From contig CP070812.1 in NCBI GenBank assembly GCA_020344015.1, positions 4,261,489 to 4,325,488 of the forward strand: a stretch of 64,000 nt of DNA, read 5' to 3'. Both the position numbers and the translations under genes were made by a program. Under the pieces are notes generated by a model. The model did not search any database and was not told where the DNA came from. It worked only from the letters and a program-made list of their open reading frames with translations. This document shows, one piece after another, positions 321 to 49,124 of this stretch (position 1 is the stretch's first letter; every line of letters begins with the position of its first letter). This stretch comes from Gemmatimonadota bacterium. GTDB lineage: Bacteria > Gemmatimonadota > Gemmatimonadetes > Palauibacterales > KS3-K002.

Positions 321-459
321 GGGAATTCGGCAATCCATGACTAATTGACTAATAGAACAACTGAGCATCTGAATTCGGAACCGGCTTTGCAGACACGTTC
401 CATATTCAAGTAGTCTATTAGTCTATTACTCAAGTAGTCATGGATTGCCGAATTCTCCC
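321..459. repeat. AT-rich palindromic element with 21-bp perfect terminal inverted repeats (MITE-like / long hairpin)
   Basis: The left arm GGGAATTCGGCAATCCATGACTA (321-343) is the exact reverse complement of the right arm TAGTCATGGATTGCCGAATTC (435-455). The arms extend imperfectly for about 15 more bp. Internal sub-repeats are TGACTAAT x2 and TAGTCTAT x2. The block is markedly AT-rich relative to its flanks. Confidence 0.6.
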
Positions 460-24847: not shown

Positions 24848-24968
24848 GAGTCTCTATCTCAGTTAACTCTTTGTTTCATAGACATTTACATTATGTCCAT
24901 ATACGTATCTACATAGTATCTACATAGAATCTACATCAGCTCCGTTGTTCCGTCAAACTGCGACCACG
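24848..24968 (-). promoter_or_regulatory. AT-rich mazEF upstream region with 11-bp tandem repeats and an inverted repeat
   Basis: ATCTACATAG x3 occurs with period 11 at 24907-24937. GACAT-N7-ATGTC inverted repeat lies at 24881-24897. GC content is much lower than the surrounding DNA. Confidence 0.45.
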
Positions 24969-26678: not shown

Positions 26679-26842
26679 GGGGCAAGGTCGCCCAGTGCGA
26701 TCAACGGAATATCAATGCGCCGGTGTAAGGTATGCCGTGTGCCGTTCGCGGTAGAAATCTCATTGGCGGGACCAGAACGCCGGCCAGGCCACCTCAGTGC
26801 GCACGCCTCGGTCCCGCGACAGTCCGAGGTCGCGCGGTCGGC

Positions 26843-29401: not shown

Positions 29402-31696
29402 TCAACGCGGCGGTGGCCGCAAAACGAGCCGGTGGGCCGCGTTCGCCTCCACCGCCTCGCGGGTGAACAAGAGCGGGAAGTAACGGCCCTCAGCCCAGAG
29501 TGGCAGCAGGTCGCCGTAATGAGGGCCACCCGGCTGGCCGGACTGGCCGGGCGTGCTGGTAGCGACGGAGCGGTCCCAGTCGGCGAGGTCGATGATCTCG
29601 CGGAACGAGGCGCCGCTCGAGCGGCCGGCGACGTTCACCGTGGTCCTATCGCCGCTACGCCCCACCGCGGGAAGCTCGAAGGCCGGAATACCCAGCGGAT
29701 GGGGGAACTGTATTTCGTTCATCGGACCCCAGCGCCAGGCCGTCCAATCGGTCCCCTGCTCCGCCTCGAGCCGGCCCACCGCCGCCGCCAGAGCGAGCTC
29801 GACCAGCGAGTCGCGCAGCGCACCCGGCGTCGCTTCCCGCAGCGCGCGACCGTCCAGCGTATCGCGCCAGGCGTGATAGAGCGCTGCGGCCGGGCTATCG
29901 CGATCGATCTCGGCGTCCCATTCCACCAGCATCCGCCGCGCCCGCTCGGTGGCGTCCGTCGTGGCCGTCCACGTCTGAAGAGTCGCGCAAGCTCTGGCCG
30001 CGGCGGATGAGTAGACGTCGAGTTGCAGCCGCTGGTAGTCCTCGACGTCGAAGTCGCCGCCCGCCGACAGCACATCGACGATCCGCAGATATCGCCGCGG
30101 CGAAGCCCAATCGAAACCGAGCGGTGGCTCGTAGCCCTCGGGCATGATGTTGTGGTTCGCCGTGGCGATGAACCCGCGGGCCGGGTTGTACTCGCGTGGC
30201 AGCCGCTCGAGCGGCAGAAAGCCGCGCCACTCGTACTCACCGGTCCCGGGGACCGGCAGCCGCCCGTACCAGCCATCTCTCACCGGAGTCAGGCCCGCCG
30301 CCTGCCAGCCGATGTTCCCGTCGACGTCGGCGTAGATCATGTTCTCCGACGGGACCTTCCAGGCCTTCATCGCCTCGAGGTACTCGTTCCAGTTCCGCGC
30401 CTGGTCGACGCGCAGCGAGCCCAGGTAGCCCGCCGTCCCCGGCTCGGCGAGCACCGAGCGGAAGGCGTAGGCGCGATGGATCACCGTGTCCTCGTAGAGG
30501 ATCGGGCCGTGGCGGCTGAACTTGAGCTCGACGACGCGTGGGTCCTCTCCTTTCACTCGGATCGTGTCGAACTCCACCCGCAGCGGCTCCCAACTACCGT
30601 TCCAGCGCACTTCGTTTCTGTTCTGAGGATTCACCTCCTCGACCACTATGTCCTGCTGGTCGATTCCGACGATCGTCAGCCCCCAGGCGATCCGCTCGTT
30701 GTGGCCGATAGCGACTCCGGGCAAGGCGGGCTCGCCGGATCCGATCACGTTCCAGCCCGGGCCGTTGAGGTGCACCAGGTAGCGCAGCGAGGGGACTATG
30801 ATCGAGCGGTGCGGGTCGTTGGCGAGGATCGGCGCCCCCGTGGCCGTGAGCCGCCCGGCCACGACCCAGTTGTTGCTGCCCGCGTCGCCCCGTCCCGCAG
30901 GGGACGCCGCGGCAGGCGACCGGTAGGGTTCGACGAGCGGCGGCCGGGGCATCCCGGCGTAGGCCGCCCCTATGATCTCGAGCACGGTATCCGGGAGGGC
31001 TCCGACGTCGAGTCCCTCGGGCACCCGGAGCTCCTGCCACGGATCGGGCGCGTCACGCCGGTTCGCCTCCTCGACCCCTACCTGCCCGACCCGCAAGGCG
31101 AGCCGCATCTCGCCGAGGGCGTTGTCGGTCATCGGCAGGCCCGCCATCCGGAGGAGCGGCACCTCAACGGACCAGGGCTCAGGCTGAATCCCGGTCAGCT
31201 TGAACTCGACGGGTGGGTTCTCCCGGCTATGTTCGATGAACGCGTTCACGCCCCTCACGAACGACGTGATGATCCGCTCCCCGTCCGGGTGGTAGCTGGT
31301 CCACTCCGCCTCCATGTCGCCACGGTAGCGTAAGAGCCGCGCCACCCGATCGCGCTCGAACGCCCCCGGCCCAACGATCTCGGCGACCCGCCCCTCGCCG
31401 ACGCGCCGCCACATCTCCAGCTGCCACAGCCGGTCCTGGGCGGCGACGAACCCCTGGGCAAAGAACAGGTCGTCCACCGTCTGCGCGTAGATGTGGGGCA
31501 CGCCCCAGCGGTCGCGCAGGACCTCCACCTCCTGCTCCAGACCGGCGATCGCGATCGTCCCCTCGATCTGAGCCAGGGCCTCCCGGGCCATCTCTTCGAG
31601 ATGCTCTTGATCGACAGGGCCGGGCGTGCAGAAGGAAACCGCCCAGGCGAGGGCGAGGACGGGTAGCGTGTGAGACCATCGTGTGTGTTCAGACAT
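29402..31696 (-). CDS. penicillin acylase family protein (Ntn-hydrolase, peptidase S45)
   Basis: Signal is MSEHTRWSHTLPVLALAWAVS. GSNNWVVAGRLTATGAPILANDPH is the beta-subunit N-terminal Ser nucleophile motif. Start taken at aa 39 of the track ORF. Confidence 0.88.
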   Translation of the reverse strand: MSEHTRWSHTLPVLALAWAVSFCTPGPVDQEHLEEMAREALAQIEGTIAIAGLEQEVEVLRDRWGVPHIYAQTVDDLFFAQGFVAAQDRLWQLEMWRRVGEGRVAEIVGPGAFERDRVARLLRYRGDMEAEWTSYHPDGERIITSFVRGVNAFIEHSRENPPVEFKLTGIQPEPWSVEVPLLRMAGLPMTDNALGEMRLALRVGQVGVEEANRRDAPDPWQELRVPEGLDVGALPDTVLEIIGAAYAGMPRPPLVEPYRSPAAASPAGRGDAGSNNWVVAGRLTATGAPILANDPHRSIIVPSLRYLVHLNGPGWNVIGSGEPALPGVAIGHNERIAWGLTIVGIDQQDIVVEEVNPQNRNEVRWNGSWEPLRVEFDTIRVKGEDPRVVELKFSRHGPILYEDTVIHRAYAFRSVLAEPGTAGYLGSLRVDQARNWNEYLEAMKAWKVPSENMIYADVDGNIGWQAAGLTPVRDGWYGRLPVPGTGEYEWRGFLPLERLPREYNPARGFIATANHNIMPEGYEPPLGFDWASPRRYLRIVDVLSAGGDFDVEDYQRLQLDVYSSAAARACATLQTWTATTDATERARRMLVEWDAEIDRDSPAAALYHAWRDTLDGRALREATPGALRDSLVELALAAAVGRLEAEQGTDWTAWRWGPMNEIQFPHPLGIPAFELPAVGRSGDRTTVNVAGRSSGASFREIIDLADWDRSVATSTPGQSGQPGGPHYGDLLPLWAEGRYFPLLFTREAVEANAAHRLVLRPPPR

Positions 31697-31710
31697 CAGC
31701 GCCCCTGTAG

Positions 31711-31895
31711 CCGGTGGCCGGTAGGTCGGTGGTCGGTAATGGCCAATCGCGGGATGGGAATCGGAAACTACCGGCACACCGGCCCACTGGCCACCGGCTA
31801 CCGTTCGCACCGGCTACCGTTCCCACCGGCCCACCGGCTACAGGCTACCGTTCCCACCGCCTCACCGACCACCGACCACCGCCCACCGGCACCAT
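31711..31895. repeat. structured repeat block in divergent promoter (inverted arms plus 16-bp direct repeats)
   Basis: Left arm CCGGTGGCCGGTAGGTCGGTGGTCGGTA (31711-31738) pairs with right arm CACCGACCACCGACCACCGCCCACCGG (31863-31890). Between them are CACCGGCTACCGTTC(G/C) x2 plus CACCGGCTACAGGCTACCGTTCC with a 16-bp period (31792-31854). The ORF-track ORFs here (TGYRSHRLPF repeats) are artefacts of the repeats. Confidence 0.6.
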
Positions 31896-32054
31896 GGCAC
31901 CTGCAAGACCAACTGGTGTAAGAAGAAGCGGCCGTGCTCGGTGGGCTCAAAGCGGCCGCCGCTCCCCCTCCGGACGGCGTCCTCCAGGCGCTGGAAACCC
32001 TTATTAGAAGCGGGACAAGGTGTAATTGACAGTCCGTGCACGTAGTCCCTAACA

Positions 32055-32768
32055 TTGTGGGCGTACGGCTATACTGACCTTCCCCGCACAGGAGTAGGAC
32101 CACTGGGCGCACAGTCCAACGGTGCAGCGCTCATCGGGCAGTTCTACGCGGAGCGGAACCGGGTGTATCCCCTCCGGGCGCCTGTGATGTCGGTCGGCCG
32201 TGCTAATGCCAACACGCTGAGGATTCGCGATTCGCGGATCGCCGCCCACCACGTCCGCATAGAACGCGATGGTGGCCAGTTCGTCCTCGCGGTGACGGCG
32301 GACGACGCTCCGACCACGCTCAACGGCTCGGAGTTGCGGTCGGGCGACCGCCGGACCCTGACAGAAGGGGACCTGATCGGGCTAGCCGACCTCGTGTTCC
32401 GATTCACCGACGATCACGGGGACGGGGTGCTCGGCCGCTTATGGGTCGTGGCTGGTGTCCACCGGGGCAAGGTGTTCCGTATCGATCGGCCGGACTACGC
32501 GATTGGCCGCGCCACAGACAACGACGTCCAGTTCCCCGATCGTTCCGTGTCCAGGCATCACTGCCGGATCCATAAGAACGACCAGGCCTGGTGGATCGAA
32601 GATCTGGAGAGCACCAACGGTACGATACTGCACGGGGCGCCGCTGCAGGCGCCGGTGCGACTCGAGCATGGAGATGAGATAGCAACCGGGTTCTCGAGAT
32701 TCGTTTTCCAGGACGGAGATCGACCGCTCGTGAGCCTCAGATTGGAGCCTACGCCGCCGTGCAACTGA
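32055..32768 (+). CDS. dual FHA-domain protein
   Basis: Two FHA cores are present: VMSVGRANANTLRIRDSRIAAHHVRIERDGGQFVLAVTADDAPTTLNGSEL and YAIGRATDNDVQFPDRSVSRHHCRIHKNDQAWWIEDLESTNGTILHGAPL. Start is uncertain: TTG at 32055, with AGGAG at 32090. Confidence 0.75.
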   Translation: MWAYGYTDLPRTGVGPLGAQSNGAALIGQFYAERNRVYPLRAPVMSVGRANANTLRIRDSRIAAHHVRIERDGGQFVLAVTADDAPTTLNGSELRSGDRRTLTEGDLIGLADLVFRFTDDHGDGVLGRLWVVAGVHRGKVFRIDRPDYAIGRATDNDVQFPDRSVSRHHCRIHKNDQAWWIEDLESTNGTILHGAPLQAPVRLEHGDEIATGFSRFVFQDGDRPLVSLRLEPTPPCN

Positions 32769-45155: not shown

Positions 45156-46145
45156 TCAGAGCCCGGCAACCTTGCGGAACGCCGATCTCAGAGTTTGGGC
45201 GGCGCTCTCGGGCGCCGTCGTCAAGATCCGCACCCCGATCCCCATCTCGAAGCCCGCACTCACCGCACAGCGTGGGATGATTTGCAGGTACCAAGGCAGC
45301 AGGCGTTCGGTCGCGCCCCCCAGCGGCGCTGTGTGGAGCATCAAGTTGTAGTCCGGGTTTCCCAAAGCGACCGCGAGCACACGGGTGGCCCGCCGCACGG
45401 CGTCTCCCAACTCCCGCAGGTCCTGGTCGTCGACCCGGTCGAAGCGCGGCGGCAGCTGGCGCGGCACGATCCAAATCTCGTTGTCGTGTGCGGCGGCGAA
45501 GGGCACGAAGGTGGCGAGCCGCTCGGTCGTGTCGAGCAGCCTCGCGCCGTCCTCCACCTCCGCCTTCGCCATCCCGAGGAGTAGTACCGCCCCGCACTCG
45601 GCCGCATACGTTCGAGAACGCTCGAGAACCTGGGCGATGAAGGGCGGCACGAACGGAAGGCCGGCCAACTGGGAGTGTGGGTGGGGCAGCGACGCGTGGG
45701 CCAGCCGGCCCTGATTGCGGAAGATCACCACATGTTCGATTCGTGGATCGGCGGCCGCCGCCGCGAAACGCTCACGGACTGTCTGCAGCACCTCCAGCAT
45801 CTCGTCCGAGCCGAATCCTGCCAGCTCCGCGTCGTGGATCGGGGTCTCGACAATCACCTCGTGCCGACCCACAGCGGGCTCGACTTGCCGGAACGCACCG
45901 GGCTCGCCAACCGCCGCCGGCATCTCATCCAGCAGCACCGGGTACTTGTTGCACACGACCCGCACGCGCCAGCCCGGTCCGTCTCCCCCCGGTTCCCGAG
46001 CAGGAAGCCGAAAGAGTTCCTCCGTCGTCTGCGCCTCGTTTCCTGGACAGAACGGACAGCCGGGGTCGAACGGTCGAGATCCCTTATCTCCCCGCGGCAC
46101 CTCTGAGGGGCGGGGACGTTCCGCCCTTCCTGGCGCGACGATCAC
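45156..46145 (-). CDS. galactose-1-phosphate uridylyltransferase-like (GalT / HIT superfamily) protein
   Basis: CPFCPGNE is the zinc knuckle. HPHSQL is the HxH nucleotidyl-transfer motif. Exact activity is uncertain. Confidence 0.75.
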
Positions 46146-46191: not shown

Positions 46192-46265
46192 GTCAGTGGT
46201 CGGTGGTCGGTAGTCGGTGAACGTTCAACGTTCGATGTCCGATGTCCAATGTTCTATGTTCAGTA
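46192..46265. repeat. degenerate heptanucleotide tandem array (period 7, ~10 units)
   Basis: GTGGTCG GTGGTCG GTAGTCG GTGAACG TTCAACG TTCGATG TCCGATG TCCAATG TTCTATG TTCAGTA. The array lies between the mutase stop and the GalT-like start. Confidence 0.55.
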
Positions 46266-47998: not shown

Positions 47999-48017
47999 TC
48001 TCCCAACCGTCTACCGT

Positions 48018-49124
48018 CTACCGTCCACCGCCCACCGAATCACCGCCCACCGCCCCCAGTATCTCCGCCGCGACATCGTACGGGGTCCGGCTCCCCAACT
48101 CCAGGTCGGCGCGGGCGCGCTCGAGGATCGCTTCACCATCGCCATCTCGCCAGACCTGGGTCCTGAGGCCGCGGTCGACGACCGCACGGACCCGCTCCAA
48201 CAGGCGCTTGGCGCGGCGCTCCGCCAGTTCGCCGGTCTCCTTCACAAGCGCGTAATGACTCTCCAGCGTCTCCACCAGCTCCGAGACCCCTTCGCCGTCG
48301 TGGGCGCTGGTCAGCAGCACCGGGATCTCCCAGGGCTGCGGATCGTCCGTTCGCTCCTCGGCCGTCTCGCTGGCTGCACCGTCCGCCTTCTCCTGGTCCG
48401 CCCGACGCTTCGCCATCGCTGTGAGGTCGACCCCGTGGTGGGCCGGCACCCGATCGTAGACCTGCCCCTGGCGGAGACGGAGTATGGTCTTGAGCTCACC
48501 GGCCGCGCGGGCCGCATCGGGTCGGTCGGCCTTGTTGACGACGAAGATATCGGCGATTTCCATCAGGCCGGCCTTCATCGCCTGGATCGAGTCACCCGAC
48601 TCGGGCGTCAAGACCACGACGGTCGTGTCCGCCGCTTCGGCTATCTCGAGCTCCGACTGGCCCACGCCAACCGTCTCGACGACGACGCGCTCGAATCCGA
48701 AGGCGTCCATCAGGTCGGCGACCTCGCGGGTCGTCGTCGCCAAGCCGCCCCGTGACCCTCTGCTCGCCATCGACCGGATGAACACGCCGTCATCGCCGGC
48801 CGTTCCGGTCATGCGTATCCGATCACCCAGCAGCGCGCCACCGGTAAACGGCGACGTGGGGTCAACCGCCACGACTCCGACTCGCCCGCCGTCCTTCCGC
48901 ACGACCTTAGCGAGACCGTAGATGAGCGTGGACTTCCCCGCCCCGGGCGGCCCGGTAATACCTATCCGGTGCGCACGGCCGACTCGACTGTGTAGCGCGC
49001 TCAGCAGTCGCTCGAACCCGGGCCGAGCGTTCTCCACCCACGAAATAGCCCGGGCCAGAGCCCGGGCTTCGCCCGCTTCGAACGCCTCCAGCAGCTCGCT
49101 TTCGCTGGACTTGAGATCGTTCAC
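48018..49124 (-). CDS. meaB: methylmalonyl-CoA mutase-associated GTPase MeaB/ArgK
   Basis: GITGPPGAGKST is the P-loop. FVVNKADR and VLLTSAHDGEGV are G4/G5. Start taken at GTG (VNDLKSS). The C-terminus has a Gly-rich GGDSVGGGR tail. Confidence 0.85.
   Translation of the reverse strand: MNDLKSSESELLEAFEAGEARALARAISWVENARPGFERLLSALHSRVGRAHRIGITGPPGAGKSTLIYGLAKVVRKDGGRVGVVAVDPTSPFTGGALLGDRIRMTGTAGDDGVFIRSMASRGSRGGLATTTREVADLMDAFGFERVVVETVGVGQSELEIAEAADTTVVVLTPESGDSIQAMKAGLMEIADIFVVNKADRPDAARAAGELKTILRLRQGQVYDRVPAHHGVDLTAMAKRRADQEKADGAASETAEERTDDPQPWEIPVLLTSAHDGEGVSELVETLESHYALVKETGELAERRAKRLLERVRAVVDRGLRTQVWRDGDGEAILERARADLELGSRTPYDVAAEILGAVGGDSVGGGR

What the first reader, a model, noticed from the sequence alone, without database searches (positions are those of the whole stretch)
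31697..32054. 358-bp divergent promoter packed with inverted arms and 16-bp direct repeats
The region lies between the penicillin acylase start (31696, minus) and the FHA-operon start (32055, plus). G/T-rich heptad-like arms (GGTCGGTGGTCGGTA) face their reverse complement about 120 bp away. Tandem CACCGGCTACCGTTC units with a 16-bp spacing lie between them. This is a strong candidate for a multi-site transcription-factor binding array controlling one or both divergent units, or a cruciform-prone element.
Basis: seen in the sequence. Interest (0 to 1): 0.5.

Follow-up and report, generated by a model that had tools for sequence, protein, structure and literature searches.

The report
Opposed short-repeat arrays forming a hairpin
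The "binding-site array" is two facing blocks of a 7-9-base tandem repeat (core ACCG/CGGT) around a conserved 32-base loop; its copy number differs between related genomes, and the neighbouring FHA (phosphopeptide-binding signalling) operon's conserved promoter is kept in relatives that have no such repeats, so it is a fairly ordinary repeat element.

Summary
The sequence observation is real. 31707-31737 holds 4 CGGT-core units. 31770-31895 holds 14 exact and 3 degenerate ACCG-core units in the opposite orientation. A 32-nt unique loop (31738-31769) lies between them. The "16-bp repeat" is a window-specific duplication inside the array: the 15-mer occurs in none of 39 related loci.

Orthologous regions from Gemmatimonadota MAGs keep the layout, but unit number and sequence change (right array 3-14 units). 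Four relatives have no repeat arrays there, and a fifth has a different repeat at that spot. All keep the 220-nt FHA upstream region and the TTGACA-N18-TAACAT promoter (32026-32055). In one relative the loop is reverse-complemented, so the arms have interacted in vivo.

ACCG/CGGT arrays recur at other intergenic sites (window 46192, 48006, 26722; related loci). None appear in 200 shuffles.

Best reading: a lineage-specific short-tandem-repeat family. It resembles the Xanthomonas GGGAATC, Nostoc GGGGAYT and cyanobacterial heptamer repeats. Here it is arranged as a hairpin- or cruciform-prone quasi-palindrome that evolves by slippage and recombination. A dedicated transcription-factor array for the FHA operon is not supported. 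A structural or RNA-level effect on the acylase leader is possible but untested. Interest is modest.

The parts
29402..31696 (-). Penicillin amidase gene (context). ATG at 31694-31696, with an SD-like AGGGG about 7 nt upstream.
   Evidence: Pfam PF01804, E = 1.3e-201. The start is aligned with L001 and L002.
31707..31737 (+). Left array: 4 CGGT-core units (GC CGGTGGC CGGTAGGT CGGTGGT CGGT). On the acylase sense strand it reads (ACCGNNN)n and ends just before the SD.
   Evidence: Relatives have 2-5 units here.
31738..31769 (.). Conserved 32-nt loop AATGGCCAATCGCGGGATGGGAATCGGAAACT. It is locus-specific and is reverse-complemented in L018.
   Evidence: 25-29 of 32 identical in L001, L002 and L021; L018 matches only as the reverse complement (23-26 of 32). 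Not found elsewhere in the first 20 related loci (L001-L020). No promoter-like site.
31770..31895 (+). Right array: 14 exact ACCG-core units plus 3 degenerate ones, 7-9 nt each. C 51%, G 20% on the + strand. It is the inverse of the left array.
   Evidence: TRF period 7, 15.9 copies. Unit parse and composition. Orthologs have 3-10 units.
31792..31822 (+).
   Evidence: The 15-mer is absent from all 39 related loci.
31896..32025 (+). Conserved upstream region of the FHA operon (GGCACCTGCAAGACCAACTGGTGTAAGAAGAA ... CCCCCTCCGGA ... AGAAGCGGG). Its length is nearly fixed, and it is present in relatives with and without arrays.
   Evidence: 10-sequence alignment: lengths 219-222 nt, 88% column identity. 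No compensatory pairs. Indels are not multiples of 3, so it is not coding.
32026..32055 (+). Sigma-70-like promoter TTGACA-N18-TAACAT of the FHA operon.
   Evidence: The only promoter-like hit in 31500-32300: 10 of 12 matches, with 0.1 expected from shuffles. TTGAC of the -35 is invariant; the -10 region is conserved with single substitutions in 4 of 9 relatives (L018, L026, L029, L024).
32103..32768 (+). FHA-domain gene. Probable true start is CTG 32103, with SD AGGAG at 32091-32095.
   Evidence: The 221-aa homologs P0008, P0034 and P0035 start at this position. TTG 32055 is out of frame in relatives. Pfam FHA x2.
46192..46261 (+). Second locus of the family: (GTCGGTG)x4, which includes an exact GGTCGGTGGTCGGTA, followed by (GTYCRAT)x4.6. 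It lies between the methylmalonyl-CoA mutase stop and the next gene.
48006..48069 (+). Third locus: (ACCGTCT/ACCGCCC)x7-8, between the MeaB ORF end and the methylmalonyl-CoA mutase start (47998, minus strand).
26722..26760 (-). Degenerate ACCG-type array between the PKD-protein stop and the RecQ start. It is orthologous to longer arrays at L002 14881-14955 (10 units) and L001 15941-15979.

Best explanation
Identity. The repeat-rich part of the region (31707-31895) is a quasi-palindromic short-tandem-repeat element. Two opposed arrays of 7-9-nt units share an almost invariant ACCG/CGGT core and flank a conserved 32-nt loop. It is one locus of a lineage-specific family of ACCG-core tandem repeats scattered through intergenic DNA of this Gemmatimonadota clade.

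How it changes. The arrays expand, contract and turn over by slipped-strand mispairing or unequal recombination. In this genome that shows as a 16-nt and a 47-nt internal duplication. Because the two arrays are inverted, they can pair as a hairpin or cruciform, or recombine. This has flipped the loop in at least one relative.

Relation to the flanking genes. The element is not the operator of the FHA operon. That operon's promoter (32026-32055) and about 130 nt of conserved upstream DNA (31896-32025) lie outside the repeats and persist in relatives that have no arrays.

Inferred, not shown: any present-day effect is structural. The candidates are a strong stem-loop in or just upstream of the acylase leader (the left array abuts the acylase SD), or a C-rich structured barrier between the upstream unit and the FHA promoter. 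Sequence-specific recruitment of a regulator to phased sites is unlikely.
For: Shown:
1. Tandem 7-9-nt units in two opposite blocks.
2. The same layout occurs at the orthologous site in L001/L022, L002, L023, L026/L027, L028, L021 and L018. Unit counts differ (left 2-5, right 3-14) and so do unit sequences, while the flanks stay about 90-100% identical.
3. The window's extra roughly 90 nt relative to L001 consists of internal duplications.
4. The 15-mer is absent from 39 related loci.
5. No arrays are present in L024/L025, L029/L030, L031 and L039, yet promoter and upstream region are conserved.
6. Among all 256 4-mers, only ACCG/CGGT and their overlapping frames form arrays of at least 4 units at several independent loci in 258 kb of Gemmatimonadota DNA. 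The window has 3 such arrays against 0 in 200 shuffles.
7. Other loci: window 46192, 48006 and 26722; L021 2633; L008 434; L002 14881 / L001 15941. The last pair are orthologous arrays that differ in length and unit sequence.
8. Folding z-scores are -4.2 (DNA) and -6.8 (RNA).
9. The loop is inverted in L018 but not in L021, which has the same gene context.

Precedent: intergenic heptameric repeat families vary in length and sequence between close relatives at the same intergenic positions, and some occur as inverted pairs. Examples are Xanthomonas GGGAATC and Nostoc GGGGAYT (PMC4692102) and Beggiatoaceae TAACTGA (PMC4679880).
Against: - The ACCG core is kept in nearly every unit while the other 3-5 positions drift. 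The presence of both blocks and the loop is maintained across genomes whose acylase is only about 86-87% identical. This hints at selection or homogenisation beyond neutral slippage.
- At the same spot L032 carries a different C-rich array, (TCCCCGAA)x4-5. L033-L038 carry a short ACCG/CGGT hairpin of opposite polarity. Some repeat or hairpin may therefore be favoured at this position.
- Arrays are 100% identical between samples of the same species (L001 vs L022; L026 vs L027). Turnover is therefore not fast.
- No transcription or binding data exist. The acylase promoter was not found, so whether the hairpin is transcribed is unknown.
Confidence: 0.7

Rival explanations
1. Transcription-factor or nucleoid-protein binding array. 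A protein recognises the repeated ACCG/CGGT units and controls the acylase, the FHA operon, or both, as ToxR and H-NS do on the variable TTTTGAT heptads of the ctxAB promoter.
For: The ACCG core is conserved in almost every unit across genomes while other positions drift. The same core is used at several loci, which would fit a global binder. Variable-number heptad operators exist (bioRxiv 10.1101/2021.05.14.444153, listed).
Against: The 15-mer is absent in orthologs. Unit number and phasing are not conserved. The 7-9-nt irregular spacing is out of helical phase. The FHA promoter region is conserved without arrays in 4 lineages. Arrays also lie downstream of stop codons and in either orientation relative to genes. 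The right array ends about 130 nt upstream of the -35.
Confidence: 0.1
2. RNA-level leader element. The arrays are transcribed. As C/A-rich (ACCGNNN)n tracts just 5' of Shine-Dalgarno sequences, or as a long leader hairpin, they modulate translation or mRNA stability, as proposed for TAACTGA repeats in Beggiatoaceae.
For: On the acylase sense strand the left array ends 2-3 nt before the SD, both in the window and in L021, where a separate (ACCGACGC)x4 array abuts AAGGAGG. ACCG-sense arrays also lie within about 50 nt upstream of RecQ (26678) and of the gene starting at 46145. The RNA fold is very stable. Precedent: PMC4679880.
Against: Upstream of the methylmalonyl-CoA mutase start the sense strand carries the opposite (CGGT) polarity. 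No promoter was found that would place the whole element in the acylase leader. There are no Rfam matches above noise. Unit number is variable. Only about 6 loci were examined.
Confidence: 0.12
3. Transcriptional insulator or terminator. A hairpin plus a C-rich, G-poor tract on the FHA-sense strand stops read-through from the upstream unit before the FHA promoter, acting as a terminator hairpin without a T tail or as a Rho-utilisation-like tract.
For: In L018, L021 and L033-L038 the element starts right at the stop codon of a co-directional upstream gene. The right array is 51% C and 20% G on the + strand. L032 has an unrelated but also C-rich array at the same spot. Arrays at 46192, 26722 and L002 14881 follow stop codons in C-rich sense.
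Against: In the window and most close relatives the upstream gene is divergent, so there is nothing to terminate. There is no T-run after the stem, and the terminator scan is negative here. Rho dependence cannot be tested. Relatives lacking arrays appear not to need them.
Confidence: 0.08
4. Programmed invertible switch or contingency locus. The 32-nt loop flips, or the arrays change length, at high frequency to vary expression.
For: Both loop orientations exist among relatives with the same gene context (L018 vs L021). Copy number differs between genomes.
Against: Only 1 of 8 distinct sequences is flipped. The loop has no promoter-like site and is far shorter than known invertible promoters. 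No recombinase was seen among the flanking genes examined. The repeats are imperfect, with 69% matches, and lie outside the -35/-10 spacer. Arrays are identical across samples of the same species.
Confidence: 0.04
5. G-quadruplex-forming repeat, like Xanthomonas GGGAATC or Nostoc GGGGAYT, acting through four-stranded DNA or RNA on the G-rich strand.
For: The G-rich strands contain many GG runs with 1-2-nt loops. ViennaRNA with G-quadruplexes enabled predicts two-tetrad quadruplexes in 4 of 6 arrays tested. L008 has a canonical G3N5 x4 motif. Precedent: PMC4692102.
Against: There is no canonical G3+ motif in any window array. The (CGGTGCGT)n arrays of L021 and L018 have none at all. Two-tetrad structures compete poorly with the perfect hairpin or duplex.
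Confidence: 0.05

Closest known systems
Intergenic heptameric simple-sequence-repeat families: Xanthomonas (GGGAATC)n, Nostoc (GGGGAYT)n and Calothrix heptanucleotide repeats (PMC4692102)
   Same: Units of about 7 nt in tandem. Only part of the unit is conserved. They are intergenic and occur at many loci per genome. They lie between the same genes in relatives but differ widely in length and sequence. Some occur as inverted pairs able to form stem-loops or cruciforms.
   Different: The unit is different (ACCG/CGGT core, 7-9 nt, irregular) and the phylum is different (Gemmatimonadota). There is no canonical G-quadruplex motif. Here the inverted pair encloses a conserved loop. Abundance per genome is not known; only about 0.4 Mb was sampled.
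TAACTGA direct repeats of marine Beggiatoaceae, cyanobacteria and Bacteroidetes (PMC4679880)
   Same: Heptamer direct repeats, mostly intergenic and often a few nucleotides upstream of start codons. Function is unknown. An RNA-level role has been proposed.
   Different: Those repeats are perfect copies of one heptamer, with 2-6 copies, and are almost never inverted. Here the units are degenerate around a 4-nt core and are arranged as opposed arrays.
Heptad-repeat operator of the Vibrio cholerae ctxAB promoter ((TTTTGAT)n with ToxR/H-NS; bioRxiv 10.1101/2021.05.14.444153)
   Same: Heptad tandem repeats upstream of a promoter, with copy number varying between strains.
   Different: The ctx heptads are perfect, AT-rich, lie next to the -35 and have known binders. 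Here the array is 130 nt from the -35, is dispensable in relatives, and its unit sequence drifts.
Hairpin-associated small inversions in chloroplast non-coding DNA (reviewed in PMC12371153; Kelchner & Wendel 1996, cited from my own knowledge)
   Same: A short loop between inverted-repeat arms is found in either orientation in related genomes.
   Different: That is an organelle phenomenon with unique arms. Here the genome is bacterial and the arms are themselves tandem-repeat arrays.
REP/BIME-type palindromic intergenic elements (from my own knowledge)
   Same: Intergenic, hairpin-forming, found in either orientation, variable between strains.
   Different: REP elements are dispersed as whole palindromic units of fixed sequence. 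Here only the short repeat unit is dispersed, and the loop is unique to this locus.

Membership tests
Intergenic heptameric SSR class (general kind) | Head-to-tail units of about 7 nt | tested here: met
   TRF period 7, 15.9 copies, 69% matches. Core spacings are 7-9 nt.
Intergenic heptameric SSR class (general kind) | Several dispersed intergenic loci in the genome sharing the unit consensus | tested here: met
   Window loci at 31707, 31770, 46192, 48006 and 26722; L021 2633, L008 434, L002 14881. Arrays are absent from shuffles. Only about 0.26 Mb was sampled.
Intergenic heptameric SSR class (general kind) | Length and sequence polymorphism at orthologous positions while flanks are conserved | tested here: met
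   Right array has 3-14 units and left array 2-5 across 8 distinct orthologs. A second orthologous set is window 26722 / L001 15941 / L002 14881.
Named families: Calothrix-type cyanobacterial heptamers, GGGAATC, GGGGAYT, TAACTGA | Unit sequence matches the family consensus | tested here: not met
   The units are CCACCGG, CTACCGT, GCACCGG and similar. None matches the published heptamers (PMC4692102, PMC4679880).
Transcription-factor operator array | Sites conserved in sequence, number and spacing in orthologous promoters | tested here: not met
   The 15-mer is absent from 39 loci. Counts and phasing are variable. Arrays are absent in 4 lineages that keep the promoter.
Transcription-factor operator array | A cognate DNA-binding protein binds the units | not testable with these tools
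   This needs pull-down or footprinting.
Phase-variable SSR contingency locus | Near-perfect repeats placed in a promoter spacer or reading frame, varying between near-identical strains | tested here: not met
   69% matches. The array lies outside the -35/-10 spacer. Arrays are identical in L001 vs L022 and in L026 vs L027.
Invertible promoter (inverton) | Inverted repeats flanking a segment found in both orientations | tested here: met
   The loop is flipped in L018 relative to 7 other sequences.
Invertible promoter (inverton) | The invertible segment carries a promoter, and a recombinase is encoded nearby | tested here: not met
   The segment is 32 nt with no promoter-like site. The neighbours are acylase, PKD, RecQ, FHA, NHL, kinase and GAF-HD proteins. 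More distant genes were not scanned.
Intrinsic terminator | GC-rich stem followed by a T-run | tested here: not met
   The terminator scan finds none in the element. The sequence after the right arm is GGCACCTGCAAG.
REP/MITE-like dispersed palindromic element | The whole element, including its loop, is repeated elsewhere | tested here: not met
   The spacer is found only at orthologous sites, even allowing up to 25% mismatches.
Canonical G-quadruplex repeat | Four or more G3+ runs with loops of 1-7 nt | tested here: not met
   There are 0 canonical motifs in the window arrays; only two-tetrad potential exists.
Any Rfam RNA family | A covariance-model hit at or above the gathering score | tested here: not met
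   Only sub-threshold miRNA-hairpin noise: 29 bits against a gathering score of 168.

The most novel reading that the evidence does not exclude
ACCG-core 7-9-nt arrays may be a functional, lineage-specific repeat system of Gemmatimonadota rather than slippage debris. The core would be kept by selection because a single-strand or duplex binding factor, or a non-B structure, uses it. The arrays would mark and mediate gain or loss of gene cassettes: the PKD+acylase block and the 447-aa gene are each flanked by direct arrays. The opposed pair upstream of the FHA operon would act as a flip-capable hairpin insulator. L032's different C-rich array at the same spot would mean that some such element is required there.
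Probability: 0.1. Interest if true: 0.6.

Novelty: new member of a known kind. Interest (0 to 1): 0.3.

Why it matters
As found, it mainly corrects an over-interpretation. The eye-catching repeats are a drifting tandem-repeat hairpin. The real conserved control region of the FHA, NHL-repeat and Ser/Thr-kinase operon is the 31896-32102 stretch next to it.

It also adds a Gemmatimonadota example, with an ACCG core, to the poorly understood class of over-represented bacterial heptamer repeats. It gives a clean natural case of hairpin-loop inversion, and of repeat arrays sitting at the junctions of variable gene blocks. These could be used to ask whether such repeats drive local rearrangement.

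Tried and rejected
1. Exact-protein look-ups of the window's acylase and methylmalonyl-CoA mutase returned nothing on record. The source genome is not in that index.
2. The Rfam scan at E <= 1 gave only sub-threshold miRNA-like hairpin noise.
3. An RNA structure in the conserved 31896-32116 region was tested with RNAalifold on 10 sequences. It found 0 compensatory pairs and a positive covariation term. Only a short GGCGYC-N5-GGCGCY stem tolerates G.U changes, so this was rejected as evidence for a structured RNA.
4. Small ORFs through the repeats or the conserved region (31670-31921, 31714-32007, 31798-32112) were rejected. Array indels and single-base indels among relatives break every frame.
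5. No promoter for the acylase was detected in the loop or arrays.
6. No canonical G-quadruplex motifs were found, and the feature is not shared by all arrays.
7. The spacer is not a dispersed element: it was not found outside orthologous sites.
8. Literature searches for repeat families in Gemmatimonadota found nothing relevant in the held library.
9. The metagenome scan with a 26-nt conserved leader pattern gave only 3 contigs. More orthologs came from FHA-protein look-ups instead.

Full report
**1. What is in the sequence**

Between the penicillin-amidase start (ATG 31696, minus strand; Pfam PF01804) and the FHA gene, the + strand reads as follows:

- four CGGT-core units, GC|CGGTGGC|CGGTAGGT|CGGTGGT|CGGT (31707-31737);
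- a unique 32-nt segment, AATGGCCAATCGCGGGATGGGAATCGGAAACT (31738-31769);
- a run of ACCG-core units of 7-9 nt, 14 exact and 3 degenerate (31770-31895).

So are the two exact CACCGGCTACCGTTC copies at 31792 and 31808.

Tandem Repeats Finder sees period 7 with 15.9 copies. It also sees higher-order periods of 16 and 47 nt, which are internal duplications.

The pattern is far beyond chance:
- Arrays of at least 4 ACCG/CGGT cores number 3 in the window against 0 in 200 dinucleotide shuffles.
- The arm 15-mer with up to 3 mismatches gives 12 hits against 3.35 expected.
- The 201-nt segment folds better than all shuffles, with DNA z = -4.2 and minus-strand RNA z = -6.8.

**2. Origin and orthologs**

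The acylase finds 86-87% identical genes in Gemmatimonadota MAGs. I recovered the FHA-upstream region from 19 further contigs.

The same block-loop-block layout is present in eight distinct sequences. The table gives CGGT units (left) and ACCG units (right).

| Sequence | Left units | Right units |
|---|---|---|
| window | 4 | 14 (+3 degenerate) |
| L001 = L022 | 3 | 4 |
| L002 | 2 | 9 |
| L023 | not available | 10 |
| L026 = L027 | 3 | 6-7 |
| L028 | 3 | 10 |
| L021 | 5 | 10 |
| L018 | 4 | 3 |

- Unit sequences differ between genomes: CCACCGG, CTACCGT, CGCACCG, ACCGACGC.
- The ACCG core and the edge units persist.
- The window's extra roughly 90 nt relative to L001 is internal to the array.
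Only the sub-unit ACCGTTCCCACCG is shared, with L002 and L026/27.
- Arrays are 100% identical between different samples of the same species. Turnover is therefore evolutionary, not rapid.

**3. What is conserved instead**

From GGCACCTGCAAG (31896) to the FHA start, ten relatives align with almost fixed length (219-222 nt) and 88% column identity. This stretch includes TTGACA-N18-TAACAT (32026-55), the only promoter-like site in 31500-32300.

The stretch is retained in L024/25, L029/30 (complete genome CP070815.1), L031 and L039, which have no arrays. The arrays are therefore dispensable for the FHA promoter.

RNAalifold gives no compensatory support for an RNA structure here. Rfam has nothing. 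Single-base indels rule out coding.

The FHA gene most likely starts at CTG 32103, with SD AGGAG 7 nt upstream:
- The 221-aa homologs start exactly there.

**4. A family, not a one-off**

In 258 kb of Gemmatimonadota DNA, ACCG/CGGT and their overlapping frames are the only 4-mer cores that form arrays of at least 4 units with 7-8-nt spacing at several independent loci. The other loci are:

- window 46192-46219, which contains an exact GGTCGGTGGTCGGTA;
- window 48006-48069;
- the degenerate window 26722-26760, whose orthologs L002 14881 (10 units) and L001 15941 again differ in length and unit sequence;
- L021 2633;
- L008 434.

These are covered. All are intergenic or at gene ends. Period 7 is the commonest period that is not a multiple of 3 in the TRF output.

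This is the behaviour described for Xanthomonas GGGAATC and Nostoc GGGGAYT heptamer repeats. Those sit in the same intergenic positions in relatives, vary widely in length and sequence, and sometimes form inverted pairs (PMC4692102). The Beggiatoaceae TAACTGA repeats are comparable (PMC4679880).

**5. Evidence that the arms interact**

L018 and L021 share the same gene context: a 447-aa gene lies between the acylase and the element. The 32-nt loop of L018 is nevertheless the reverse complement of that in L021 and all the others. It matches at 26/32 as the reverse complement, against 21/33 with gaps in the same orientation. This is a hairpin-associated minute inversion, as known from chloroplast spacers (PMC12371153).

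Direct arrays also flank variable gene blocks:
- On the window + strand, CGGT-type arrays at 26722-26760 and 31707-31737 bracket PKD+acylase. That block is missing in L029, L031 and L039, where RecQ abuts the FHA region.
- In L021, (CGGTGCGY)n arrays at 2633 and 4093 bracket the 447-aa gene.

That the arrays act as recombination substrates is an inference from this pattern.

**6. Mechanism**

Shown: this is a drifting tandem-repeat quasi-palindrome outside the conserved promoter.

Inferred: it grows and shrinks by slippage or unequal exchange, and any effect is structural.

Rival readings:
- A binding array, as with the ctxAB heptads. Disfavoured by the lack of conservation, the off-helix period and the dispensability of the arrays.
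- An RNA leader element. The left array abuts the acylase SD in the window, and a separate array does so in L021. However, the polarity is opposite upstream of the mutase gene.
- An insulator or terminator. The element follows a stop codon in L018, L021 and L033-38, and the + strand is 51% C and 20% G. However, there is no T-run and the upstream gene is divergent here.
- A programmed switch. One flip in eight sequences, no promoter in the loop, imperfect repeats.
- A G-quadruplex. Only two-tetrad potential, and not in all arrays.

Two facts keep a functional reading alive. The ACCG core is preserved while other positions drift. L032 carries a different C-rich array, (TCCCCGAA)n, at exactly this spot.

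**7. Verdict**

The TF-array part is not. The element is a new member (new unit, new phylum) of the known class of intergenic heptamer repeat families. Interest is modest, at 0.3.

Noticed in passing
window 32055-32103: The FHA gene probably starts at CTG 32103 (SD AGGAG at 32091-32095), not at TTG 32055. The 221-aa homologs begin MGAQSNGAAL... at that codon. In all nine aligned relatives an extra base right after the TTG puts it out of frame. TTG 32055 also overlaps the -10 of the predicted promoter.
   Followed up: yes
window 31896-32102; alignment A2: The FHA-operon upstream region is unusually conserved. Its length is 219-222 nt in 10 relatives, and the 5' leader is almost invariant at the DNA level, more so than the acylase coding sequence. 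Fixed blocks include GCACCTGCAA, CTGGTGTAAGAAGAA, CCCCCTCCGGA and AGAAGCGGG. A GGCGYC-N5-GGCGCY stem (31977-31993) is kept through G.U changes. No compensatory pairs and no Rfam hit were found. Its regulators are unknown.
   Followed up: partly
L018 8330-8405 vs L021 4093-4160: The 32-nt loop between the opposed arrays is reverse-complemented in L018 only (26/32 identity to L021 as the reverse complement). This is a minute inversion between repeat arms in a bacterial intergenic region.
   Followed up: yes
window 26722-26760 and 31707-31737; L021 2633-2668 and 4093-4127: Variable gene blocks are bracketed by same-polarity ACCG/CGGT arrays. One is PKD protein + acylase, which is absent where RecQ abuts the FHA region in L029, L031 and L039. 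The other is a 447-aa protein with no Pfam match in L018, L021 and L033-38. This suggests deletion or insertion through the arrays.
   Followed up: partly
L032 630-675: At the position of the window's right array, just upstream of the conserved GGCACCT flank, this relative has a different octamer array, (TCCCCGAA)x4-5. It is also C-rich on the FHA-sense strand, and its complement is a canonical G4-type motif.
   Followed up: no
L033 2671-2723 (identical in L034-L038): More distant relatives have a short perfect hairpin built from the same units but with opposite polarity: ACCGCCACCGGTTACCGGC, a 15-nt loop, then GCCGGTAACCGGTTAGCGG. It sits directly after the stop of the upstream 440-aa gene.
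   Followed up: no
window 46230-46261: A second, unrelated heptamer array, (GTTCGAT/GTCCGAT/GTCCAAT/GTTCTAT)x4.6, directly abuts the (GTCGGTG)x4 array. Two different heptamer repeats lie side by side in one intergenic region.
   Followed up: no
window 48006-48069: The ACCG array between MeaB and methylmalonyl-CoA mutase overlaps the last roughly 17 codons of the MeaB ORF as listed (stop at 48018). It ends 8 nt from the mutase ATG, overlapping its SD-like GGGAG. The MeaB C-terminus may be mis-extended into the repeat.
   Followed up: no
L008 430-462: (GGGCGGTW)x4, a canonical G3N5 quadruplex motif, lies at or inside the 5' end of a minus-strand ORF encoding a signal-peptide-like N-terminus.
   Followed up: no
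L024 480-690, L025: Upstream of the FHA region these contigs carry what looks like a fragment of the acylase gene (CACATCTCCAGCTGCCA...GACGAAGCCCTGGGCG) fused near the last CCACCG unit. The acylase 5' part and the whole hairpin appear to be deleted.
   Followed up: no
window 338-439 and 24905-24936: Other short AT-richer tandem repeats were listed by TRF: TGACTAAT x2, TAGTCTAT x3.6 and GTATCTACATA x2.9. Their composition is atypical for this 64% GC window. They were not examined.
   Followed up: no
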